This document shows positions 16,712-52,925 of a stretch of DNA of 64,000 nucleotides, one piece after another; within the stretch, counting starts at the first letter, position 1, and every line of letters begins with the position of its first letter. The notes beneath the pieces were generated by a model, which did not search any database, was not told the origin of the DNA, and saw nothing but the letters and a program-made list of their open reading frames with translations. The DNA lies in sequence record PZ019084.1; one strand, 5' to 3'. A program made the position numbers and the translations under genes. This DNA comes from a phage.

Positions 16712-16942
16712 ATGTTACTAGAATTTAAACAATTTCTTTATGAAGCTTCTATTGATGAATTTATGGGTAAAATTGCCTCTTGTCAAACATTAGAAGGTTT
16801 AGAAGAACTTGAAGCTTATTACAAGAAAAGAGTTAAAGAAACTGAATTAAAAGATACTGATGACATCTCTGTAAGAGATGCTTTGGCAGGAAAAAGAGCT
16901 GAATTAGAAGATTCAGACGATGAAGTAGAAGAAAGCTTTTAA
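16712..16942 (+). CDS. uvsW.1: UvsW.1 small acidic protein, 76 aa
   Basis: The track ORF begins at TTG 16700. ATG 16712 follows a GGAGA RBS. Confidence 0.75.
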   Translation: MLLEFKQFLYEASIDEFMGKIASCQTLEGLEELEAYYKKRVKETELKDTDDISVRDALAGKRAELEDSDDEVEESF

Positions 16943-16997
16943 ATTAAAAAAGGCCCAACCAAAAAGGAAGGGCCAAAACTATAGACTAAAGGTCACA

Positions 16998-17165
16998 CTA
17001 TAGCAAAAGTTGTGTTTCATTTAATTGTTCTTCCGAACTTTCTGAAACTGGTAGTTCTTTAATGTAATTATAACAAGGCCCAGGATGTACAGGACCTTTG
17101 TCTGTTTCAACAACCAATGCAGAATCGATTGGAGTTTTACAGACAACACAAATCTTATCTGACAT
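16998..17165 (-). CDS. uvsY.-2: 55-aa Cys-containing small protein (uvsY.-2 position)
   Basis: Below the 60-aa track cutoff and found by hand. GAGGAG RBS then ATG. Translation is MSDKICVVCKTPIDSALVVETDKGPVHPGPCYNYIKELPVSESSEEQLNETQLLL, with CxxC...C suggesting a zinc-ribbon-like fold. Confidence 0.6.
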   Translation of the reverse strand: MSDKICVVCKTPIDSALVVETDKGPVHPGPCYNYIKELPVSESSEEQLNETQLLL

Positions 17166-17193
17166 GATTGTCTCCTCTAAATTATATATCTAT

Positions 17194-17418
17194 TTATATA
17201 ACTCTCATATGCATATCAATGCCCATATCTTTAGAATAAAAATATTCATCAAGATATCCGGCAAATTTTCCTTTAATATAAAGTACATCTTCACCGCATG
17301 GGTGGTCGGCCAGGATACGAATATCCTGACGCTTGAGATTATACTTTTTCATTAAGAATTGAATTTCCGTTTCGAATTCTTCTTCATAATTAAAAGCATC
17401 ATCAATGCTATATCTCAT
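17194..17418 (-). CDS. uvsY.-1: hypothetical protein (uvsY.-1 position), 74 aa
   Basis: ORF coupled to the uvsY stop, in synteny with T4. Confidence 0.7.
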   Translation of the reverse strand: MRYSIDDAFNYEEEFETEIQFLMKKYNLKRQDIRILADHPCGEDVLYIKGKFAGYLDEYFYSKDMGIDMHMRVI

Positions 17419-17831
17419 TATTTTCCAGCCTCAAATGCTCGCATGTCTTGAATATGTTTAATAGCAAATCCGCGTGATTTAATAGCATCAAGAGCTCCGC
17501 TACAGAAATCCAATAAAATTCCCCAATATTGCAATGAAGTATCAACTTTTAAAACATCCTTATCAGCTGATAGAACTGTCTTCATTTCTGATTTCTCATA
17601 ACGGTCCATACTAAATTCATCACCATCTCCTCGTCCCGAGTAGTAGTCTAATTTAGCTTTAAGAGCAACTTTTTTCTGCGCGTCAATTCTAAGCATTTCC
17701 TTTTTAATACTTGAATGCTTATTAAGCCATTTACTATATAACATCACATTATTAGCTGCTTCATACTGTAATTTAGTCGAATCTATAAACACATCTTTCT
17801 TCAATTCTTCTTGAAGATCTTCTAATTTCAT
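17418..17831 (-). CDS. uvsY: UvsY recombination mediator, 137 aa
   Basis: Length and sequence match T4 UvsY. Confidence 0.93.
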   Translation of the reverse strand: MKLEDLQEELKKDVFIDSTKLQYEAANNVMLYSKWLNKHSSIKKEMLRIDAQKKVALKAKLDYYSGRGDGDEFSMDRYEKSEMKTVLSADKDVLKVDTSLQYWGILLDFCSGALDAIKSRGFAIKHIQDMRAFEAGK

Positions 17832-18972: not shown

Positions 18973-19722
18973 ATGGCAAACATTATTCGTTGTAAATTAC
19001 CAGATGGTGTTCATCGTTTTAAACCATTTACGGTAGAAGATTATCGAGATTTTTTGTTAGTTCGAAACGATATAGAACATCGGTCACCACAAGAACAAAA
19101 AGAAATAATTGCTGATTTAATTGCCGATTATTTTGGAGACTATCCGAAGACTTGGCAACCATTTATATTTTTGCAGGTATTTGTAGGGTCAATAGGTAAA
19201 ACTAAAGTACCGGTCACATTTGTGTGTCCAAAATGTAAAAAAGAAAAGACAGTTCCATTTGAAATATATCAAAAAGAATTAAAGGAACCTGTTTTTGACG
19301 TAGCTAATGTTAAAATTAAATTAAAGTTTCCTTCTGAGTTTTATGAAAATAAAGCAAAGATGATTACTGAAAATATTCATTCTGTTCAAGTAGATGAAAT
19401 TTGGTATGATTGGAAGGAAATTAGTGAATCAAGTCAAATAGAACTTGTTGATGCCATCGAGATAGAAACATTAGAAAAAATTCTTGATGCAATGAATCCT
19501 ATTAATTTAACATTGCATATGTCATGTTGTAATAAGTATGTAAAAAAATACACTGATATAGTAGATGTGTTTAAGCTATTAGTTAACCCAGATGAGATAT
19601 TTACTTTTTATCAAATCAATCACACGCTCGTAAAAAGTAATTATAGCTTAAATTCAATAATGAAAATGATTCCTGCCGAGCGCGGATTCGTATTAAAACT
19701 GATTGAGAAGGATAAACAATAA
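18973..19722 (+). CDS. 51: baseplate hub assembly catalyst, 249 aa
   Basis: Length and position match T4 gp51. Confidence 0.88.
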
Positions 19723-20897
19723 TGAGTATGTTGCAACGCCCTGGATATCCAAATCTCAGCGTTAAATTATTTGATAGCTACGACGCTTGGAGTAATAATA
19801 GATTTGTTGAATTAGCTGCTACTATTACCACATTAACTATGCGGGATTCTCTTTATGGCCGAAATGAAGGAATGCTGCAGTTTTATGATTCTAAAAATAT
19901 CCATACAAAAATGGATGGAAATGAAATAATTCAAATTTCTGTAGCTAATGCAAACGATATTAATAATGTTAAAACAAGAATTTATGGATGTAAGCATTTT
20001 TCCGTGTCAGTAGATTCAAAGGGTGATAACATCATTGCTATTGAATTGGGAACTATTCATTCTATAGAAAATCTTAAATTTGGCAGACCGTTTTTCCCTG
20101 ATGCAGGTGAATCTATAAAGGAAATGCTTGGTGTCATTTATCAGGATCGCACGTTATTAACTCCAGCAATAAATGCTATAAATGCTTATGTTCCTGATAT
20201 TCCGTGGACTAGTACATTTGAAAATTATTTGTCCTATGTAAGAGAAGTTGGTCTAGCTGTAGGAAGCGACAAATTTGTATTTGTGTGGCAAGACATCATG
20301 GGAGTTAACATGATGGACTATGATATGATGATAAATCAAGAACCATATCCAATGATTGTCGGTGAGCCATCTTTAATAGGTCAATTCATCCAAGAATTAA
20401 AATATCCATTAGCATATGATTTCGTTTGGTTGACTAAATCAAATCCTCACAAACGTGACCCAATGAAAAACGCTACTATCTATGCTCATTCATTTTTAGA
20501 TTCTTCATTGCCAATGATTACTACAGGAAAGGGCGAAAACTCTATTGTAGTATCAAGGTCAGGTGCTTATTCTGAAATGACTTATAGGAATGGATATGAA
20601 GAAGCTATTCGTCTTCAAACTATGGCACAATATGATGGCTATGCTAAATGTTCTACTGTCGGTAATTTTAACTTGACTCCTGGCGTTAAAATTATTTTTA
20701 ATGATAGTAAAAACCAATTTAAAACAGAATTTTACGTTGATGAAGTTATCCATGAATTATCCAATAATAATTCAGTAACTCATCTATATATGTTCACTAA
20801 TGCAACGAAACTGGAAACAATAGACCCAGTTAAGGTTAAAAATGAATTTAAATCTGATACTACCACTGAAGAAAGTAGTTCTTCCAATAAGCAATAA
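19722..20897 (+). CDS. 27: baseplate hub subunit, 391 aa
   Basis: Length and sequence match T4 gp27. Confidence 0.92.
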
Positions 20898-21375
20898 AGA
20901 AGTTTCTATTCCTAAAATGGGTCTTAAACATTATAACATTTTAAAAGATGTTAAAGGTCCTGATGAAAATTTAAAACTTCTTATTGATTCTATTTGTCCG
21001 AATTTATCACCGGCAGAAGTTGATTTCGTTTCTATTCATTTATTGGAATTTAATGGAAAGATTAAATCTCGTAAAGAAATAGATGGCTATACTTATGACA
21101 TTAATGATGTTTATGTGTGCCAAAGATTAGAATTTCAATACCAAGGAAATACATTTTATTTTAGACCTCCTGGAAAATTTGAACAATTTTTAACTGTGAG
21201 CGATATGTTATCCAAATGCTTGCTTAAGGTCAACGATGAAGTTAAAGAAATTAATTTTCTTGAGATGCCAGCATTCGTTTTAAAATGGGCAAATGATATT
21301 TTTACAACTTTAGCAATTCCTGGCCCTAATGGTCCAATAACCGGAATTGGCAATATTATTGGATTATTTGAATGA
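20842..21375 (+). CDS. 28: baseplate distal hub subunit, 177 aa
   Basis: Length matches T4 gp28. It overlaps the 3' end of gene 27 by 56 nt, as in T4. Confidence 0.85.
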
Positions 21376-33383: not shown

Positions 33384-33670
33384 TAGAACCTCATCTGAAA
33401 ACCGTGCGATTTAACATTACCGCCGCCAATATCAGAAATGTTAATTTCACGCGCAATTGAAGGGTCAATGTCAATTTCACGATTGAGTTTAGTGATAGCT
33501 AAAGTATCGCGGCCATTTACAATACGGAACTCTAAAGGGCAGACTACATTAACATAGTTTTTAATCGATTCACTAGTAGGCTGCAAATGAGCAGGAAGGT
33601 CTTTAGGTGCCTTAGAGAAAACCACTTCACAGAAATTTTTGCGGGTATCAAAATAAGTAGTCATAAACAT
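33383..33670 (-). CDS. 30.6: hypothetical protein, 95 aa
   Basis: ORF in the coupled operon, in synteny with T4. Confidence 0.6.
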   Translation of the reverse strand: MFMTTYFDTRKNFCEVVFSKAPKDLPAHLQPTSESIKNYVNVVCPLEFRIVNGRDTLAITKLNREIDIDPSIAREINISDIGGGNVKSHGFQMRF

Positions 33671-33711
33671 AGTATTTTCCTCAGTAAGGGGCCGAAGCCC
33701 CTCATTTTATT

Positions 33712-34077
33712 TTAAATATCAAATTCGTTAAGAACTACATCAAAGATTGCTTCAAGATGCTCAGGTTTAGCTCTGTTACTCAGAATATGACGAATCCAAG
33801 TTTTAACTAGAAGCTTACGATTAACGCCATTCCAGCAAGGATGAGTCCCTAAATCACGTTGACGGAAATCATCATCTAATGCGATTTTAAAAGAAGAACC
33901 TTCTTTCGTGATTGAAACCGTGATGCCATTTTCAAATCGCATATAAACGTAGTTAGGAGTCATATACTGTTCAATTTCGCATACTGATCCATTTTGATGT
34001 TTCCAAAGGCAGATAGTATCAATAGAACCTGCAATACCGTTAGAAACATATTTACGTTCAAAGTTGATGTAGTTCAT
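33712..34077 (-). CDS. 30.7: hypothetical protein, 121 aa
   Basis: ORF with a GGAGAA RBS, in synteny with T4. Confidence 0.65.
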   Translation of the reverse strand: MNYINFERKYVSNGIAGSIDTICLWKHQNGSVCEIEQYMTPNYVYMRFENGITVSITKEGSSFKIALDDDFRQRDLGTHPCWNGVNRKLLVKTWIRHILSNRAKPEHLEAIFDVVLNEFDI

Positions 34078-34114
34078 TTTTATTCTCCGAGATGTTTAAT
34101 TGCGGTACAGGTAT

Positions 34115-34143
34115 ATAATATCATATCCTGTACCAAAGTAAAC
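34115..34143 (-). promoter_or_regulatory. early promoter upstream of 30.7
   Basis: Minus strand reads GTTTAC-N17-TATTAT. The -10 element lies in the loop of an 8-bp inverted repeat (34104-34111 / 34127-34134). Confidence 0.5.
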
Positions 34144-34147
34144 TATT

Positions 34148-34516
34148 TTATGCAACTTTAATCCAATTATCTAAATTTAATTCACCTTTGGCTTTCATTT
34201 TTTCAATCAAGAGGTCAGCGGTAATACGACCATTTTGATACCACGTAACATCTTCAGAGTAACCAGTTTCTTTATCTTCATAAGTCTCACAGCGAATTTT
34301 ACCAAGAATCAAAGTTTTTAATTCGTATGTATCTCCAGTAAAAAAGTTAGTTAACATTATTTTCCAAGAGAAATCATCAGAAGGACCTTCAGGAGTCATA
34401 CAATCTACGAATTCAAATTGTTCTTTATATAAATGCCACTGAAGTTCTTTAGTTTCGATAGCTTTATAGCCGTCGTGATCTTTACCTTTGATGTATGAGT
34501 TAAGATTGATTTTCAT
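34148..34516 (-). CDS. 30.8: hypothetical protein, 122 aa
   Basis: ORF with a GGAGAA RBS, in synteny with T4. Confidence 0.65.
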   Translation of the reverse strand: MKINLNSYIKGKDHDGYKAIETKELQWHLYKEQFEFVDCMTPEGPSDDFSWKIMLTNFFTGDTYELKTLILGKIRCETYEDKETGYSEDVTWYQNGRITADLLIEKMKAKGELNLDNWIKVA

Positions 34517-34543
34517 TTTATTCTCCTTTGTTTGTGTAAGATA

Positions 34544-34573
34544 ATACTATCACAAAGGAACCATACTGTAAAC
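34544..34573 (-). promoter_or_regulatory. early promoter upstream of 30.8
   Basis: Minus strand reads GTTTAC-N18-TAGTAT. Confidence 0.5.
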
Positions 34574-34595
34574 AACTTTGTGCAATCTTTGGAAA

Positions 34596-34626
34596 ATAAA
34601 AAAAAAAGGACTCCCGAAGGAGTCCT
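34596..34626 (-). terminator. strong rho-independent terminator after the small basic ORF
   Basis: AGGACTCC-cgaa-GGAGTCCT 8-bp stem, followed on the minus strand by a run of about 11 U. Confidence 0.8.
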
Positions 34627-34630
34627 CAAC

Positions 34631-34807
34631 TTATGCTTTCTGCTTACCAAAACGAGAAGCATCATCTCGAAGAACCGCACGTGCTCGACGCATGATCTTC
34701 TCAACAGTTTGATTGATACGAGAGTTCGACCCACGCTTGTAGCCAGCGCGTTTAGAATCACCAACTTTCTTTTCAACTGCTTTCTTTGCTTTAACTTGTT
34801 TTGCCAT
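34631..34807 (-). CDS. 58-aa highly basic protein (30.9 position)
   Basis: MAKQVKAKKAVEKKVGDSKRAGYKRGSNSRINQTVEKIMRRARAVLRDDASRFGKQKA. The track ORF extends to ATG 34849, but that start has no RBS. Start assignment is uncertain. Confidence 0.5.
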   Translation of the reverse strand: MAKQVKAKKAVEKKVGDSKRAGYKRGSNSRINQTVEKIMRRARAVLRDDASRFGKQKA

Positions 34808-43210: not shown

Positions 43211-44380
43211 TTAAAAATATTTTTTAAAACTCATCATAACTTTATCATCAACATCATTATCAATCTGTGCTACAAGATAAGATGATAGTTCTACTTCTTG
43301 TGGCGCGGATTGAACATTATCAGAATTAAGATATTCACGAATCCAAGGATACGGGTGTTTAACCGGAGCATCGGTAATTGGGCATGGAAGACCGCACTGT
43401 TTCATACGAGATACAGTTAAGTAATCAATAAAGCTCCACATGCTATTTGTATTTAATCCAGGAACATCGCCATCTTTAAATAAATGAACTGCCCAGTCTT
43501 TTTCTTGACGGTTAACTTCCATGAAAATATCAACTGCTTCTTGTTCACACTCTTGGGCAATTTTAACCCATTCATCGCCATCAGTGCCAAGTTGAAGTTG
43601 ACGAATAATATATTGAGTGCCTTTAAGGTGAAGCTGTTCATCACGAGCAATGAACTTCATAATCTTGGCATTACCTTCCATGATTTCCATGTTTTTATGG
43701 AAGTTAAAGGTACATGCGAAAGATACATAAAAACGAATAGCTTCCAATGCGTTGATTACATGAAGGCAAAGATAAAGAGATTTCATTAATGCTCGTTTAG
43801 TACATTCAACAACTTTGCCTAACTCTTCTTTACGAAATCCTTCTGATAAAATTCCTTCATAATCTTCAACCGCATTCTGATATTCACGAGTCTTAACTAG
43901 AACATCATCATAATAGCGACCAATGGACTCGGCACGTTTCATAATAGCTTTATCTAATACAATCTCATCAAACACCTTTGACGGATCAGTATAAAGATTT
44001 CGCATAATATGAGTGTATGAACGACTGTGAATAGTTTCACTAAAAGTCCATGTAGCAACCCATGTATCAAGGCTTGGGTCTGAAATTAATGACATAAGTA
44101 CAGCAGACGGTGCACGACCCTGAATGCTATCCAAAAGTGATTGATACTTCAGGTTATTAGTAAAAATATCTTGCTGATACTGAGGAAGCTTGTTAAATTG
44201 TGCAGCATCCATCATTAAGTTTACTTCTTCAGGACGCCAGAAAAATGACAACTGCTTTTCAGTTAAATCTTCAAAAACTTTATGGCGTTGAATATCATAA
44301 CGCGCAATACCAAGACCTGAACCGAAGAACATAGGTTCTTTTAAAACATCAACTGGATTTGTATTAAAAACTGTAGACAT
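43211..44380 (-). CDS. nrdB: ribonucleotide reductase beta subunit, uninterrupted 389 aa
   Basis: Full-length R2 protein in one continuous ORF, with no intron. Confidence 0.95.
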   Translation of the reverse strand: MSTVFNTNPVDVLKEPMFFGSGLGIARYDIQRHKVFEDLTEKQLSFFWRPEEVNLMMDAAQFNKLPQYQQDIFTNNLKYQSLLDSIQGRAPSAVLMSLISDPSLDTWVATWTFSETIHSRSYTHIMRNLYTDPSKVFDEIVLDKAIMKRAESIGRYYDDVLVKTREYQNAVEDYEGILSEGFRKEELGKVVECTKRALMKSLYLCLHVINALEAIRFYVSFACTFNFHKNMEIMEGNAKIMKFIARDEQLHLKGTQYIIRQLQLGTDGDEWVKIAQECEQEAVDIFMEVNRQEKDWAVHLFKDGDVPGLNTNSMWSFIDYLTVSRMKQCGLPCPITDAPVKHPYPWIREYLNSDNVQSAPQEVELSSYLVAQIDNDVDDKVMMSFKKYF

Positions 44381-44414
44381 ATTATTCTCGCTTATTATAG
44401 GTTTAAATATTTAA

Positions 44415-45206
44415 TCACATATTATGTATAAGCACTTCAGTCTGAAATGATGCACCTTTCTTTTGCTTCCTGTACATGGTTTCAAAATATTCGATTTTGA
44501 AATTATTAGAAAGGGCCCAATCTTTTAGAATATAATTATTAATATCGTCTGATAGATTATTAGTGATAATAAATTTAGACTTTGAGCGTTTAATTTTATC
44601 TAATAATTCTAATTCATCCTTTTCTTCCCATCCTGAATATTTAAATTTAGTAGAAAGATATGGCGGGTCAATGAATAAATTTTTGTTTTCAAAATCTAAA
44701 TCTTTGAATGATTTATTACTAAATGTAAATCGGTGCTGTCTATTTTTAAATTCAGAAAATTTATCCTGTTGAGACTTATTAAAAGAAGTTCTAGAATACT
44801 TGGCTCTATTGGCGAAAGCCGCATTATAGTTACCATTACTAGAAAATCGGATTAACGAACTGAATGAAAATAAATGTAAAACATAAAGATATAGTCCATT
44901 TTTGGTTTTATCATACTCTTTTGACAGATTATAAAAGGGTGCTGAATCTTTGTCATTCAAATTGAAGTCTTCAATAATTTGAACTATATCATTGATTGAA
45001 GATACTTTCATCTTTTTATACATGTCTATAAGAGGAGTGTTAATATCATTACATATAACATCTCTCTGGCAATTCATAGAAAATCCAAGACCGCCACAAA
45101 AAGCATCCAAAACAGGCTTATCGTCAAAGCGGTTTGAAAATTGTCTAATAAATGGCATATACTTGTGCTTTGCACCCGGATATGTTATTGCAGGTAGGTC
45201 TTTCAT
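44415..45206 (-). CDS. Dam-like DNA N6-adenine methyltransferase (alpha-type motif order), 263 aa
   Basis: N-terminal YPGAKHK, SAM motif I DAFCGGLG, catalytic motif IV DPPY. LYVLH and W.E.DE..LL blocks resemble T4 Dam. The gene is very AT-rich and has its own TGATATAAT extended -10 element upstream. Confidence 0.8.
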   Translation of the reverse strand: MKDLPAITYPGAKHKYMPFIRQFSNRFDDKPVLDAFCGGLGFSMNCQRDVICNDINTPLIDMYKKMKVSSINDIVQIIEDFNLNDKDSAPFYNLSKEYDKTKNGLYLYVLHLFSFSSLIRFSSNGNYNAAFANRAKYSRTSFNKSQQDKFSEFKNRQHRFTFSNKSFKDLDFENKNLFIDPPYLSTKFKYSGWEEKDELELLDKIKRSKSKFIITNNLSDDINNYILKDWALSNNFKIEYFETMYRKQKKGASFQTEVLIHNM

Positions 45207-45250
45207 GTTATTTCTCGTTTGTTAGTGACTCGTCCGTGAGTCAAATTATA

Positions 45251-47515
45251 TCATAATTTACAGGATGAACAATCTTCAGCTTTTGGAGTTTCTATTTCAT
45301 AATCATCAGTACCGGAACCATCACGAGTATTATGATAATAGAAGTTTTTAATGCCATAATACCATCCGTATAGCATGTCATCAATCATTACAGACATTGG
45401 AACCTTTCCTTTTGGAAAAATCTGCGGGTCATAATATGTATTAGCTGAAGCTGATTGACATACCCATTTCAGCATAATAGCTACCTGCGTAAGATAAGGT
45501 TTATTGCCTTTCTTAGCTAATTTCCACGTATAATCATAGAGGTCTATGTTATGCTCAATATTGGGCACGACTTGATTAAAGGAACCCTCTTTTGATTCTT
45601 TAACAGAGACTGGTCCACGTGGAGGCTCGATACCGTTTGTACTGTTAGAAACTTGGGAAGATGACTCACATGGCATAAGTGCTGATAATGTGCTATTACG
45701 GATGCCAAAGAGCTTAAGGTCTTCCCGCAGCGACGACCAGTCACAAACGTATTTTGGAGCTGCGATTTGGTCAATCTTTTTATTGTACCAGTCGATAGGT
45801 AATTCGCCTCGAGACCAACGAGTGTCTGAATAATATTCGCAAGGTCCTTTTTCTTTGGCGAGCTTAATGGATGCTTTAATGAGTCCATACTGTAATCTCT
45901 CAAATAGTTCATGTGTTAAATCGTTAGCATCTTCATAAGAAGCAAAATTACTTGCCAACCAAGCTGCATAGTTAGTAACACCTACACCGAGATTTCGACG
46001 CTTTTTAGCTTTTTCTGCTTCAGGAACTGGATATCCTTGGTAATCCAAAAGATTATCAAGAGCACGAACTTGGACTTCTGCCAATTCGTTAATTTTATCT
46101 TGGTCTTGCCAATCGAAGTTATCTAACACAAATGCAGATAACGTACACAATCCAATTTCAGCATCAGGACTATTCACGTCATTTGTTGGAATAGCAATTT
46201 CACAACACAAGTTACTCTGACGAATAGGTGCCTTTTCACGAATAAATGGAGTATAGTTATTCGTATTATCAATGAACTGTACATAAATCCTTGCTGTTCC
46301 TGATCGTTCAGTCATGAGCAATTCAAACAGTTCACGGGCTTTAATGCGCTTTTTACGAATATTAGGGTCTTTTTCTGCGGCTTCGTACAATTCACGGAAA
46401 CGGTCTTGGTCTTTAAAATAAGAATAATAAAGTTCGCCACCCATTTCATGTGGACTGAACAGAGTAATGTAGTCGTTCTTTCCAAAACGTTCCATCATCA
46501 AATCATTCAGCTGGACGCCATAATCCATATGACGGATACGGTTTTCTTCTACACCTTTGTTATTTTTCAAAACGAGAAGATTTTCAACTTCCAAATGCCA
46601 AATAGGATAATAAGCAGTAGCAGCGCCGCCACGAATTCCGCCTTGTGAACATGATTTAACAGCAGTCTGAAAATGTTTCCAAAAAGGAATAACACCAGTA
46701 TGACGCACTTCACCTGTGCCAATCTTAGAACCTTCAGCACGAATCATACCAACGTTAATGCCAATTCCAGCGCGTTTGGAGATATATTCAACAATTGAAG
46801 CAGAAGCCTTATTGATAGACTTCAGCGAATCACCTGCTTCAATAACAACGCATGAACTAAACTGTCGAGTTGGAGTACGACAACCAGCCATAATAGGAGT
46901 TGGTAATGAAATCTGTCGAGTAGATACCGCTTCATAAAAACGAATAACGTGTTTTAGTCTATCAACAGGTTCATCTTGATGCAGTGCCATTCCAATAGTC
47001 ATAAATGCAAACTGTGGAGTTTCATAAATTTGACCAGTGGTTTTATCTTTAACTAGATATTTTTCTTTTAATTGCATCGCCCCGGAATAAGTAAATTCCA
47101 TATCCCGCTCGTGCTTAATTTTTGATTCTAAAAATGTAATTTCTTCTGCTGAATATTTTGACAACAATTCAGGGTCATATTTACCTTCATTTACACAGTA
47201 AGAAATATGGTCAATAAATGAACGTGGTTCATATTGTCCGTAAACATGCTTACGAAGAGCAAACATTAAACAGCGAGCGGCTACGTATTGATAATCAGGC
47301 TCTTCAACTGAAATAGAATTCGCAGCAGCCTTAATTACAATGGTTTGAATGTCATCAGTTGTCATTCCATCACGGAGATATGATTTAATATTTTCATATA
47401 ATTCATAAGGATCTACAGATGTTCCTTCGGCTGCCCAAGATAAAACTTTAATAATTTTTTGCGGGTCAAAGCTCTGAGAAACACCACTACTTTTGATAAC
47501 ATTAATTAATTGCAT
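45251..47515 (-). CDS. nrdA: ribonucleotide reductase alpha subunit, 754 aa
   Basis: Class Ia R1 with the active-site NLCCEI and a C-terminal CSSCKL redox pair. Length matches T4 NrdA. Confidence 0.96.
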   Translation of the reverse strand: MQLINVIKSSGVSQSFDPQKIIKVLSWAAEGTSVDPYELYENIKSYLRDGMTTDDIQTIVIKAAANSISVEEPDYQYVAARCLMFALRKHVYGQYEPRSFIDHISYCVNEGKYDPELLSKYSAEEITFLESKIKHERDMEFTYSGAMQLKEKYLVKDKTTGQIYETPQFAFMTIGMALHQDEPVDRLKHVIRFYEAVSTRQISLPTPIMAGCRTPTRQFSSCVVIEAGDSLKSINKASASIVEYISKRAGIGINVGMIRAEGSKIGTGEVRHTGVIPFWKHFQTAVKSCSQGGIRGGAATAYYPIWHLEVENLLVLKNNKGVEENRIRHMDYGVQLNDLMMERFGKNDYITLFSPHEMGGELYYSYFKDQDRFRELYEAAEKDPNIRKKRIKARELFELLMTERSGTARIYVQFIDNTNNYTPFIREKAPIRQSNLCCEIAIPTNDVNSPDAEIGLCTLSAFVLDNFDWQDQDKINELAEVQVRALDNLLDYQGYPVPEAEKAKKRRNLGVGVTNYAAWLASNFASYEDANDLTHELFERLQYGLIKASIKLAKEKGPCEYYSDTRWSRGELPIDWYNKKIDQIAAPKYVCDWSSLREDLKLFGIRNSTLSALMPCESSSQVSNSTNGIEPPRGPVSVKESKEGSFNQVVPNIEHNIDLYDYTWKLAKKGNKPYLTQVAIMLKWVCQSASANTYYDPQIFPKGKVPMSVMIDDMLYGWYYGIKNFYYHNTRDGSGTDDYEIETPKAEDCSSCKL

Positions 47516-52271: not shown

Positions 52272-52925
52272 TTAATACTTACAAGATTTCACAGTTTCAA
52301 TGAAAACATTTTTAGCTTTTTGTGAATCAATATTTAAAATTTTTCTATAAGCCTTTAACTTTATAGAATAATTATTCCAGACTAAATTATCAGTCTGTTC
52401 ATCATGTTTATCAATTATATTTAAAAACGAATCAAGCAAGATAAACGTCTCAAACGAAATTATATTCGATTGAAGTAGTTTAAAAATATAACTTGATTGA
52501 ACTTTTGGATTATATTCAAAAATTTCTTTAAAAGCAGAAACTTCAACTTTTTTACTAAAATAATAAATGTTGCGAATATCTTCTTCAAACTTAAATTTAA
52601 TTTGCTTTAAGCGTCCGATATATTCACGATAAAACACAAGTGCATCAGCGTCAGAGATGTCACCAATCCAAGCATCTTGGTTAGCAACCAGATTGCTTAT
52701 AAAGATTAAAGCAAGTTCCTTTAATTTATATTTTTCTGATAACTTCTGGAAAAAATACTTATCCCTTCGCTTTTGATAAGCGGCATCAGACACCCGCATG
52801 CACCAATTATACTTAATTACATCATACTTTCCATTCATATGTTGTTTTATCATTAAGTATAATTTATAAACTGATTTACCATCAATGTATCTTTCACCAC
52901 CAGCAGGCATGCGGAGTTTAATCAT
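52272..52925 (-). CDS. 59: helicase (gp41) loader, 217 aa
   Basis: Length and sequence match T4 gp59. Confidence 0.92.
   Translation of the reverse strand: MIKLRMPAGGERYIDGKSVYKLYLMIKQHMNGKYDVIKYNWCMRVSDAAYQKRRDKYFFQKLSEKYKLKELALIFISNLVANQDAWIGDISDADALVFYREYIGRLKQIKFKFEEDIRNIYYFSKKVEVSAFKEIFEYNPKVQSSYIFKLLQSNIISFETFILLDSFLNIIDKHDEQTDNLVWNNYSIKLKAYRKILNIDSQKAKNVFIETVKSCKY

What the first reader, a model, noticed from the sequence alone, without database searches (positions are those of the whole stretch)
44381..45250. AT-rich Dam-like adenine methyltransferase occupying the nrdB-nrdA spacer (the T4 mobE slot)
A 263-aa ORF between nrdA and nrdB carries the alpha-type order of MTase motifs: YPGAKHK, then DAFCGGLG (motif I), then DPPY (motif IV). 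It also has several blocks reminiscent of T4 Dam (LYVLH, DPPYL, W-E-DE--LL). In T4 this spacer holds the free-standing HNH homing endonuclease gene mobE, and the canonical dam gene maps far away, outside this window. The gene is markedly more AT-rich than nrdA and nrdB. It has its own extended -10 element (TGATATAAT, minus strand about 45250-45242) followed by a hairpin (45229-45246). This looks like a horizontally acquired cassette at a known mobile-element hotspot. An extra orphan MTase could protect against an additional restriction specificity or mark DNA for self/non-self discrimination between co-infecting T-evens.
Basis: partly seen in the sequence, partly recalled or inferred. Interest (0 to 1): 0.7.

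Follow-up and report, generated by a model that had tools for sequence, protein, structure and literature searches.

The report
Rare swappable Dam-like methylase cassette
Between the two ribonucleotide-reductase genes of this T4-like phage sits a rare one-gene insert encoding a distant cousin of the T4 Dam DNA-adenine methylase; in almost every phage that has it, it is the only such enzyme rather than an extra one, so it is a familiar kind of gene in an unusual, recombination-prone place.

Summary
The ORF is real (44415-45206, minus strand, 263 aa). It is a full-length D12/alpha-class N6-adenine DNA methyltransferase. Its nearest relative anywhere is T4 Dam, at only 34-39% identity. It lies in an 822-bp single-gene insertion (44401-45222) that replaces 23 nt of the usual nrdA-nrdB spacer.

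The "own" extended -10 (TGATATAAT) and hairpin are not part of the insert. Phages with an empty spacer have them base for base, so they belong to the resident nrdB promoter region.

The cassette is rare: about 9 of 50,697 phage records. It is always between nrdA and nrdB, and it occurs in four genera. Its sequence similarity does not track that of its flanks, so it spreads by recombination through the conserved nrd genes. It is under strong purifying selection.

The "extra MTase" reading fails for most carriers. Eight of nine carrier genomes, including all five closest relatives, have no canonical dam; only vB_Eco_BGP has both. Most Tequatroviruses have no dam at all.

Specificity is probably GATC-like. 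However, the residue equivalent to T4 Pro126 is Ala or Ser, and the DNA-reading hairpin is the most variable part of the protein.

GenBank already annotates this gene as a DNA adenine methylase. This is an ordinary kind of gene with modest interest.

The parts
44401..45222 (-). Inserted cassette, 822 bp: a 16-nt leader, the 792-nt MTase ORF and a 14-nt trailer. It replaces 23 nt of the empty-site nrdA-nrdB spacer.
   Evidence: Comparison with the empty-site phage SA21RB. Homology runs up to ...GAGTCACTA (45223) and resumes at CTAT.AA..TAAGCG (44400).
44415..45206 (-). 263-aa D12/alpha-class N6-adenine DNA methyltransferase, a distant relative of T4 Dam. The stop codon TGA is at 44415-44417.
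   Evidence: ORF. PF02086 at 85.1 bits against a cut-off of 22. PHROG 56. T4 Dam 1YFJ at E=4e-37. AF2 model pLDDT 91 with TM 0.84-0.90 to T4 Dam. dN/dS 0.04-0.18.
45207..45222 (-). Cassette leader ACAAACGAGAAATAAC, with a weak Shine-Dalgarno (GAG) 9-11 nt before the ATG. In relatives an ATG four codons upstream gives an MRNN/MRSN extension; here that codon is ACG.
   Evidence: Sequence. P0001 and P0003 start with MRNNM and MRSNM.
45162..45182 (-). N-terminal motif YPGAKHK (aa 9-15). K13 aligns with T4 Dam K11 and EcoDam K9, which help recognise the first base pair.
   Evidence: Alignments. K is invariant in 65 sequences. Role of K9 from PMC4417163.
45084..45107 (-). Motif I, DAFCGGLG (aa 34-41), the AdoMet-binding loop.
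   Evidence: F36 and G38 are invariant across relatives.
44805..44870 (-). DNA-reading beta-hairpin region (aa 113-134). Equivalents in T4 Dam: F115=F111, S116=S112, L118=M114, R120=R116, A130=P126, F131=F127, and R134 (or R139)=R130. A 6-aa insertion follows.
   Evidence: phmmer alignment to T4 Dam. MAFFT alignments. It is the most divergent block between alleles A and B, with 10 of 22 residues changed.
44658..44669 (-). Catalytic motif IV, DPPY (aa 180-183).
   Evidence: D180 and P182 are invariant, and P181 and Y183 nearly invariant (at least 90%), in the 65-sequence alignment.
45245..45253 (-). Extended -10, TGATATAAT. It overlaps the nrdA stop codon. It is resident, not cassette-borne, and is probably the nrdB promoter of phages that lack mobE. 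A weak -35 (TTGTTC) lies at 45272-45267 with a 16-nt spacer.
   Evidence: Identical in the empty-site phage SA21RB, where it is annotated as a promoter. [quoted passage not shown] The sigma-70 scan did not flag it, because the -35 matches only 3 of 6.
45226..45243 (-). Hairpin TGACTC-acggac-GAGTCA. It is resident and present in empty-site phages. There is no T-run, so it is not a terminator.
   Evidence: Fold at -7.5 kcal/mol, z=-2.0. Identical in SA21RB. No terminator-like site in 44200-45500. No Rfam match.
44381..44400 (-). Retained nrdB translation-initiation region (CTATAATAAGCGAGAATAAT), homologous to the empty-site CTATTAACTAAGCGGAAAATTT.
45251..47515 (-). nrdA, the upstream flank. Its promoters also feed the cassette.
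   Evidence: 95-97% identical to T4 and SA21RB nrdA. In T4, mobE in this slot is co-transcribed with nrdA (PMC2790892).
43211..44380 (-). nrdB, the downstream flank. It has no intron.
44250..44267 (-). nrdB nt 114-131, the polymorphic MobE target region. Codon 42 is AAG, the state of phages that lack mobE and are nicked by MobE.
   Evidence: Nick sites and codon-42 states from PMC2790892.

Best explanation
This is a promoterless single-gene cassette that encodes an active, orphan, T4-Dam-type N6-adenine DNA methyltransferase. It acts as an alternative dam gene at a second locus.

How it works, with each step marked as shown or inferred:
- Placement (shown): the 822-bp insert lies just downstream of the resident promoter-like element at the end of nrdA and just upstream of the nrdB ribosome-binding site.
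- Transcription (inferred): it is transcribed with nrdA and nrdB, from the promoters upstream of nrdA and from the resident nrdB promoter. nrdB is then read through, because no terminator follows the MTase.
- Chemistry (inferred from homology): the enzyme binds AdoMet through FCGGLG and D54. It flips the target adenine into the DPPY pocket. It reads the site with a beta-hairpin, where F115 intercalates, R120 contacts the G of the fourth base pair, L118 and A130 contact the third, and K13 plus an Arg contact the first. It therefore most likely makes G(6mA)TC or a close superset on the phage's own hydroxymethylcytosine DNA.
- Role (inferred): protective methylation against host nucleases.
- Spread (shown): it is exchanged among T4-like phages, across genera, by homologous recombination through the conserved nrdA and nrdB flanks.
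- Sole or extra (shown for relatives, inferred here): in most carriers it is the only Dam-family enzyme.
For: Family and activity:
- PF02086 over the full length.
- The best solved homologue is T4 Dam at E=4e-37, against about 1e-5 for DpnM and EcoDam.
- The AF2 model has pLDDT 91, and T4 Dam chains are the top PDB matches at TM 0.84-0.90.
- The AdoMet-binding and catalytic motifs are invariant or nearly so across relatives.
- dN/dS is 0.04-0.18 in seven pairs.

Cassette:
- Exact boundaries against an empty site.
- About 80% of sampled Tequatrovirus spacers are empty, about 15% hold mobE, and about 1% hold this gene.
- The cassette occurs in 9 of 50,697 phage records, always as nrdA-MT-nrdB, in Tequatrovirus, Gelderlandvirus, Marfavirus and an unclassified phage, plus three metagenome contigs.
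- Window against BGP: the nrdA 3' end is 96.4% identical but the MTase only 80.3%. BGP against CF-SP2: the MTase is 91.5% identical but nrdA only 81.6%.
- The MTase has 27-31% GC in every host, while the flanks range from 36% to 43%.

Expression:
- The -10 element and hairpin are shared with the empty site and annotated there as a promoter.
- There is no terminator between the MTase and nrdB.
- mobE in the same slot is promoterless and co-transcribed with nrdA, and the nrdB middle promoter of mobE-less phages lies at the nrdA 3' end or in the spacer (PMC2790892).

Sole Dam:
- Each of the five close carriers, CF-SP2 and fDHCT2 shows one Dam-like place.
- The gene 56-61 slot is empty in T4_ev240 and 236Ecol005PP (against T4).
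- The window holds only one Dam-like gene.

Specificity:
- K13, F115, S116, R120, F131 and an Arg equivalent to R130 are conserved with T4 Dam.
- The roles of the EcoDam equivalents come from PMC4417163.
- The three nearest structures (T4 Dam, EcoDam, DpnM) are all GATC enzymes.
Against: - No activity or methylome data exist for any member of this clade.
- The protein scores 92.8 bits against NCBIfam TIGR00571 (Dam family), below the curated cut-off of 114.85. T4 Dam scores 239.5.
- The residue equivalent to T4 Pro126 / EcoDam P134, which contacts the third base pair, is Ala here and Ser in allele B.
- Allele B also has Lys in place of the Arg that reads the fourth base pair.
- A 6-aa insertion sits next to the Arg equivalent to R130. 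Alignments disagree on whether R134 or R139 is that equivalent.
- The recognition hairpin is the most variable block between alleles. GATC specificity is therefore only a plausible inference.
- One carrier, BGP, has both genes, so the two are not strictly alternative.
- With about 36% of Tequatroviruses carrying canonical dam, finding one of eight or nine related carriers with both is not statistically different from independence.
- The window does not include the gene 56-61 region.
- The promoter function of TGATATAAT has not been shown, and its -35 is poor.
Confidence: 0.75

Rival explanations
1. It is an additional orphan MTase with a specificity different from GATC. It works alongside the canonical T-even Dam to block a further restriction system or to mark self DNA.
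For: BGP carries both canonical dam and this gene. Identity to T4 Dam is only 34-39%. The protein falls below the TIGR00571 cut-off. The recognition hairpin differs at the position equivalent to P126 and carries a 6-aa insertion.
Against: Eight of nine carrier genomes, including all five with this allele, have no other Dam-family gene. The residues that read the fourth base pair and intercalate are conserved. Nothing indicates a new motif.
Confidence: 0.15
2. It is a naturally relaxed-specificity enzyme of the dam-h type. It methylates GATC plus non-canonical sites such as GAY-type sequences, giving broader protection than canonical Dam. The two alleles, A and B, differ in their range of sites.
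For: The position aligned with T4 Pro126 is Ala in allele A and Ser in allele B. From my own memory, not retrievable here: Miner, Schlagman & Hattman 1989, NAR 17:8149, reported that the T4 hypermethylating dam-h mutation is P126S and that F127V (dam-c) abolishes methylation of hmC DNA. F127 is conserved here as F131. EcoDam P134 and L122 contact the third base pair (PMC4417163). The hairpin is the most divergent block between alleles, with 10 of 22 residues changed, including R120K.
Against: Among 58 distant relatives this position is already variable (P 26, S 12, A 8, T 6), and their specificities are unknown. The change may therefore be neutral in this sequence background. There are no biochemical data. 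Hairpin divergence could simply reflect loop tolerance.
Confidence: 0.25
3. It is an ancient vertical resident. The gene was in the nrdA-nrdB spacer of the common ancestor of these genera and has since been lost from nearly all lineages, so there was no horizontal transfer.
For: The slot is the same in four genera. Between the window and CF-SP2 or fDHCT2, MTase DNA identity (78-79%) is close to nrdA identity (80-81%).
Against: Within Tequatrovirus, two alleles differ by 20% while their flanks differ by 4% or less. BGP's allele is 91.5% identical to that of Gelderlandvirus CF-SP2, although their nrdA genes are only 81.6% identical. In PhiKpNIH-6 the MTase (75%) is more conserved than nrdA (71%) and has 27% GC against 43%. 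Only about 1% of genomes carry it, so this view would require hundreds of independent clean losses.
Confidence: 0.08
4. It is a decaying or non-catalytic remnant, for example a DNA-binding protein without methyltransferase activity.
For: No activity data exist. The Shine-Dalgarno sequence is weak.
Against: All catalytic and AdoMet motifs are intact. The structural model is confident and full length. dN/dS is 0.04-0.18 across alleles that have diverged to saturation at synonymous sites.
Confidence: 0.03

Closest known systems
Bacteriophage T4 Dam (M.EcoT4Dam; PDB 1Q0S, 1YF3, 1YFJ, 1YFL)
   Same: It is the closest relative by sequence (E=4e-37, full length) and by fold (TM 0.84-0.90). The best hit outside the gene's own cluster, among 1.84 billion representatives, is P0025, which is 54% identical to T4 Dam. 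Both are alpha-class enzymes with the same motif order, DPPY, and the hairpin residues F, S, R, F and K. Both are orphan, phage-borne, and act in a T-even genome with hmC DNA.
   Different: Identity is only 34-39%. The locus differs (nrdA-nrdB spacer, not between genes 56 and 61). P126 is replaced by Ala or Ser, there is a 6-aa insertion after the hairpin, and the C-terminal third diverges. It scores below the TIGR00571 cut-off. Its specificity is untested.
E. coli Dam and S. pneumoniae DpnM (GATC-specific D12 MTases; PDB 2G1P, 2DPM)
   Same: Same Pfam family and same fold (TM 0.71-0.80). The equivalents of EcoDam Y119, R124, L122 and K9 are present.
   Different: Sequence identity is 16-18% in the structural alignment. 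Those are host enzymes, used for mismatch repair and replication control or as part of an R-M system. This is a phage cassette.
T4 mobE, the free-standing HNH homing endonuclease in the nrdA-nrdB spacer
   Same: Same insertion slot. Both are promoterless single-gene inserts that depend on resident transcription (PMC2790892). Both have a sporadic distribution among T-evens.
   Different: The cassette has no nuclease domain and no means of mobilising itself. It can only move by general recombination or by co-conversion. Its carriers keep the nrdB target state that MobE nicks, so mobE should displace it.
Orphan anti-restriction methyltransferases of phages and plasmids
   Same: It is a solitary MTase with no partner nuclease, carried on a mobile genome, and presumably protects DNA that is to be exported (concept from PMC12707154).
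   Different: Its function here is inferred only. T-even DNA is already protected by glucosyl-hmC, so the selective benefit is unclear.

Membership tests
D12-class (alpha-group) N6-adenine DNA methyltransferases (Pfam PF02086) | Profile score above the Pfam gathering threshold, over the whole domain | tested here: met
   85.1 bits against 22; aa 9-245 match profile positions 1-251 of 253.
D12-class (alpha-group) N6-adenine DNA methyltransferases (Pfam PF02086) | Alpha-type order: AdoMet motif I (FxGxG), then the target-recognition region, then catalytic motif IV (DPPY) | tested here: met
   FCGGLG is at aa 36-41, the hairpin at aa 113-134 and DPPY at aa 180-183.
D12-class (alpha-group) N6-adenine DNA methyltransferases (Pfam PF02086) | Dam-type fold | tested here: met
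   AF2 model with pLDDT 91.1 and pTM 0.90. The top 24 PDB matches are all T4 Dam, EcoDam or DpnM, at TM 0.71-0.90.
D12-class (alpha-group) N6-adenine DNA methyltransferases (Pfam PF02086) | Actual N6-adenine methyltransferase activity | not testable with these tools
   This needs expression in dam- cells or a methylome of carrier phage DNA.
NCBIfam TIGR00571, Dam family site-specific DNA-(adenine-N6)-methyltransferase | Score at or above the curated cut-off of 114.85 bits | tested here: not met
   92.8 bits for the window allele and 70.2 bits for the BGP allele, against 239.5 bits for T4 Dam. It is still the best-matching family and aligns over the full length.
Canonical T-even dam (orthologue of T4 dam) | Position between gene 56 (dCTPase) and gene 61 (primase) | tested here: not met
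   The gene lies between nrdA and nrdB. T4 dam is at 16846-17625, between genes 56 and 61.
Canonical T-even dam (orthologue of T4 dam) | Close sequence similarity to T4 Dam (T4-type dam genes are at least 90% identical in DNA among Tequatroviruses) | tested here: not met
   34-39% amino-acid identity. It belongs to a separate 50%-identity cluster. T4-type dam is at least 90% identical in 182 of 184 records.
Canonical T-even dam (orthologue of T4 dam) | GATC specificity, including on hmC DNA | tested here: inconclusive
   The equivalents of K11, F111, S112, R116 and F127 are conserved. P126 is replaced by Ala or Ser, M114 by Leu, and there is an insertion near R130. There is no biochemical test.
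Free-standing homing endonuclease gene (mobE / seg type) | Encodes an HNH or GIY-YIG nuclease that cuts the allele lacking it | tested here: not met
   The only domain is PF02086. The cassette holds one ORF.
Restriction-modification system | A cognate nuclease gene adjacent to the MTase | tested here: not met
   The neighbours are nrdA and nrdB in all twelve related loci inspected, besides the window itself. The MTase is therefore an orphan.

The most novel reading that the evidence does not exclude
The cassette encodes a natural equivalent of the laboratory dam-h hypermethylating mutant. On this reading it is a T4-Dam-lineage enzyme whose Pro-to-Ala or Pro-to-Ser change and remodelled hairpin give a relaxed or shifted recognition motif. 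Two alleles (A with R120/A130, B with K120/S130) would have different motifs. T4-like phages of different genera would swap these alleles through the nrd flanks as an interchangeable anti-defence module, in competition with mobE for the same slot.
Probability: 0.2. Interest if true: 0.55.

Novelty: new member of a known kind. Interest (0 to 1): 0.3.

Why it matters
- It shows that dam is an accessory gene in T-even phages. Only about 36% of Tequatrovirus records carry the canonical gene. It can be supplied from two different loci by two distantly related genes.
- It shows that the nrdA-nrdB spacer, known as a homing-endonuclease hotspot, also hosts non-nuclease cargo that crosses genus boundaries.
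- The clade has not been characterised biochemically and is isolated in sequence space: a single 50%-identity cluster among 1.84 billion representatives.
- A natural comparison set already exists. NR1 has only the cassette, Geo has only canonical dam, and BGP has both. This makes the gene's specificity and any role against host defences easy to test.
- If the Ala or Ser at the dam-h position does relax specificity, the gene would be a natural example of a classic laboratory specificity mutant.
- Otherwise it is a routine annotation ("DNA adenine methylase") that is already in GenBank.

Tried and rejected
- IMG/VR scans for more carriers, with the single protein and with an alignment of the clade, found nothing. 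I could not enlarge the carrier sample that way.
- The exact protein of this window is not in the 15-billion-protein collection. I could not find the source genome, so I could not inspect its gene 56-61 slot.
- Several papers are not held: Horton 2005 (Cell), Horton 2006 (JMB), Miner 1989 (NAR) and Miller 2003 (MMBR). One literature search on dam-h returned only unrelated papers. The P126S and F127V statements therefore rest on my memory. Residue roles were taken from the EcoDam paper PMC4417163.
- The sigma-70 scan does not list TGATATAAT, because its -35 matches only 3 of 6. By eye I could not find a convincing MotA box either. Promoter function therefore rests on the literature statement and on the SA21RB annotation.
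- Rfam gave no match in 44200-45500, and no terminator was predicted.
- I considered mutual exclusion with canonical dam and rejected it as a firm claim. One of nine carriers has both genes, the background frequency of dam is about 36%, and the carriers are related, so the pattern is not significant.
- I rejected AT-richness as evidence of foreign origin within this genome. GC3 equals that of the flanks, and core genes are equally AT-rich. The argument only holds in the higher-GC genera.
- The structural model could not settle whether R134 or R139 matches T4 R130, because the fold search gives no residue-level alignment.
Full report
**Observation**

The window has a 263-aa ORF at 44415-45206 on the minus strand, between nrdA (45251-47515) and nrdB (43211-44380). 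The translation carries YPGAKHK (aa 9-15), DAFCGGLG (aa 34-41) and DPPY (aa 180-183). That is the alpha-type order, with motif I before the recognition region and motif IV.

Pfam PF02086 (D12-class N6-adenine MTase) matches over the full length at E=8e-24. PHROG 56, "DNA methyltransferase", matches at E=4.5e-36. In T4 the same spacer holds mobE and nrdB.1, and T4 dam lies between genes 56 and 61. The core observation is therefore correct.

**What the protein is**

- The best solved homologue is T4 Dam, at E=4e-37 with aa 4-252 aligned to residues 2-251. DpnM and E. coli Dam are far behind, at about 1e-5.
- An AlphaFold2 model built from 62 sequences is confident (pLDDT 91.1, pTM 0.90). Its best PDB matches are the T4 Dam chains (TM 0.84-0.90), then EcoDam and DpnM.
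- Identity to T4 Dam is only 34-39%.
- In an exhaustive HMMER scan of 1.84 billion 50%-identity representatives, only the gene's own cluster scores E<=1e-30. The next hit, P0025 at 34% identity, is itself 54% identical to T4 Dam. The clade is thus isolated, and the T4 Dam lineage is its nearest neighbour.
- Against NCBIfam TIGR00571 ("Dam family") it scores 92.8 bits, below the curated cut-off of 114.85. T4 Dam scores 239.5.
- All AdoMet and catalytic residues are intact.
- dN/dS is 0.04-0.18 across seven pairs of alleles, so the gene is functional and under selection.

**The cassette and its borders**

I compared the window with the empty-site phage vB_EcoM_SA21RB. Homology runs through the nrdA stop codon and 28 further bases, up to ...TGATATAATTTGACTCACGGACGAGTCACTA. 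It resumes 20 nt before the nrdB ATG.

The insert is 822 bp (44401-45222). It consists of a 16-nt leader, the ORF and a 14-nt trailer, and it replaces 23 nt of the empty-site spacer. It holds no second gene, no nuclease and no terminator.

**The promoter and hairpin belong to the phage, not to the gene**

- The extended -10 (45253-45245, with its TG inside the nrdA stop codon) and the hairpin (45243-45226; -7.5 kcal/mol, z=-2.0) are identical in SA21RB, which lacks the MTase.
- The SA21RB record annotates the same element as a promoter.
[quoted passage not shown] They also show that mobE in this slot is promoterless and co-transcribed with nrdA (PMC2790892).
- The cassette has therefore landed downstream of resident promoters. 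I infer that it is expressed with the nrd genes and that nrdB is read through.
- The simple sigma-70 scan does not flag this site, because its -35 (TTGTTC) matches only 3 of 6. Promoter function is inferred, not shown.

**Distribution**

- The cassette DNA is found in 9 of 50,697 phage records.
- Five Tequatroviruses carry it at about 95% identity: T4_ev240, 236Ecol005PP, ECO07P2, EP02SG and vB_Eco_NR1.
- Four more divergent copies occur in vB_Eco_BGP (Tequatrovirus), CF-SP2 (Gelderlandvirus), fDHCT2 (unclassified) and PhiKpNIH-6 (Marfavirus).
- Three metagenome contigs also carry it.
- In every case the order is nrdA-MT-nrdB.
- A spread sample of 822 records that match the nrd region shows about 80% empty spacers (record span 1182 bp), about 15% holding mobE, and about 1% holding this gene.
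- Two IMG/VR scans found no further copies.

**Horizontal exchange**

- Window against BGP: the nrdA 3' end is 96.4% identical, but identity falls to 70-80% exactly at the gene's start and recovers in nrdB.
- BGP against CF-SP2 shows the reverse: the MTase is 91.5% identical but nrdA only 81.6%.
- The MTase has 27-31% GC in every host, although the flanks range from 36% to 43% GC. In PhiKpNIH-6, GC3 is 20% for the MTase against 40% for nrdA.
- This is the signature of a cassette moved by recombination through conserved flanks.
- Within this window alone, AT-richness is not diagnostic. The gene has 29.4% GC, second lowest of 57 ORFs, but its GC3 equals that of the flanks, and gp59, gp28 and a baseplate gene are just as AT-rich.

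**Extra or sole Dam?**

- The query protein detects canonical T4 Dam by tblastn at 1e-22. Even so, each of the five close carriers, CF-SP2 and fDHCT2 shows a single Dam-like place.
- The second place in PhiKpNIH-6 is the gene wrapping around the ends of the record.
- In T4_ev240 and 236Ecol005PP, the interval between gene 56 and gene 61 is about 270 bp, against 1149 bp in T4. There is no dam in it.
- Only BGP has both genes.
- T4-type dam occurs in about 184 records, while about 506-511 records have a Tequatrovirus-level nrd region. Most Tequatroviruses therefore have no Dam at all.
- The "extra MTase" reading fails for the close relatives. A strict either/or rule is also not supported, because one carrier has both and the numbers are small and not independent.
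- The window spans roughly T4 coordinates 94-158 kb and holds only this one Dam-like gene. It does not cover the dam slot, so the state of this phage is inferred.

**Specificity**

For EcoDam, PMC4417163 gives these roles:
- R124 reads the G of the fourth base pair.
- Y119 intercalates.
- N120 contacts the orphaned base.
- L122 and P134 contact the third base pair.
- K9 and Y138 read the first base pair.

The equivalents here, through T4 Dam, are R120, F115, S116, L118, A130, K13, and R134 or R139. All are conserved in kind except the proline. It is Ala in allele A (the window, P0004 and PhiKpNIH-6) and Ser in allele B and in P0002.

From memory (Miner et al. 1989), the T4 hypermethylating dam-h mutation is P126S, and F127V blocks methylation of hmC DNA. 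F127 is kept here as F131. That makes relaxed specificity a reasonable but unproven idea.

Two further points bear on this:
- The position is variable among distant relatives of unknown specificity.
- The hairpin is the most divergent block between the alleles, with 10 of 22 residues changed, including R120K.

I rate GATC or a superset of it as the most likely target, at roughly 60%.

**Context with mobE**

All carriers keep nrdB codon 42 as AAG and the sequence at nt 114-131 that is typical of phages lacking mobE. T4 has CGG at codon 42. Wilson & Edgell mapped the MobE-dependent nicks to nt 122-126 of T2 nrdB, in exactly this state. The nick site lies about 160 nt from the cassette. I infer that a co-infecting mobE+ phage would overwrite the cassette, which may contribute to its rarity.

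**Known or new?**

GenBank already labels the gene "DNA adenine methylase" in several carrier records. I found no paper that discusses it. The Durham-collection paper notes only the canonical Dam-like gene of Geo, EL and BGP (PMC13390438).

It is a new, uncharacterised member of a known kind. Its interest is modest and lies in three things: the second dam locus, the exchange between genera, and the natural variation at the dam-h position.

Noticed in passing
window 1-64000: GATC is by far the most depleted 4-base palindrome in the window: 73 observed against 217 expected from a second-order Markov estimate (ratio 0.34). The next lowest are CTAG at 0.66 and CATG at 0.68. The cassette itself contains no GATC. 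This bears on how much any Dam-type enzyme has to methylate.
   Followed up: partly
window 44250-44267 (nrdB nt 114-131): The window and all carriers have the nrdB sequence state (codon 42 AAG) that Wilson & Edgell 2009 associate with MobE nicking. T4 has CGG. The cassette lies about 160 nt from that nick site, so mobE+ phages should displace it by co-conversion.
   Followed up: partly
window 44805-44870 (aa 113-134), compared with L005 4501-5289: The DNA-reading hairpin is the most divergent block between the two cassette alleles. Ten of 22 residues differ, including R120K and A130S, against 14 of 129 in the C-terminal half. The 3' third of the gene is 86-94% identical in DNA while the 5' two-thirds is 70-80% identical. 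The cause could be a difference in specificity or an intragenic mosaic.
   Followed up: partly
L011 7404-8743 (vB_Eco_BGP 33403-34742): In BGP the canonical dam is immediately preceded by a 186-aa hypothetical gene. [quoted passage not shown] BGP is also the only genome with both Dam-type genes.
   Followed up: no
L004 5850-6560; L005 6148-6957; L006 615-1352: Carriers often have homing endonuclease genes close to the cassette. 236Ecol005PP has nrdA split by a "putative mobile endonuclease". BGP has an nrdB intron with a homing endonuclease. CF-SP2 has a td intron endonuclease. The window's own nrdA, nrdB and td are uninterrupted. Co-conversion driven by these nucleases could carry the cassette along.
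   Followed up: no
L002 4051-4317; L003 5155-5422: In phages without dam, the interval between gene 56 and gene 61 is about 270 bp and carries a small ORF on the opposite strand (41-66 aa, "phage protein"). In T4 the same interval is 1149 bp and holds dam. About two thirds of Tequatrovirus records appear to lack any Dam-family gene.
   Followed up: partly
window 52272-52925, 20842-21375, 18973-19722: The other ORFs of the window with the lowest GC (28-30%) are core T4 genes: the gp59 helicase loader, the gp28 baseplate hub and a baseplate protein. Low GC alone therefore does not mark foreign DNA in this genome.
   Followed up: yes
window 45207-45218: Relatives (P0001 and P0003) start four codons further upstream (MRNNM and MRSNM). 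In this window that codon is ACG, so translation must start at the ATG at 45206.
   Followed up: no
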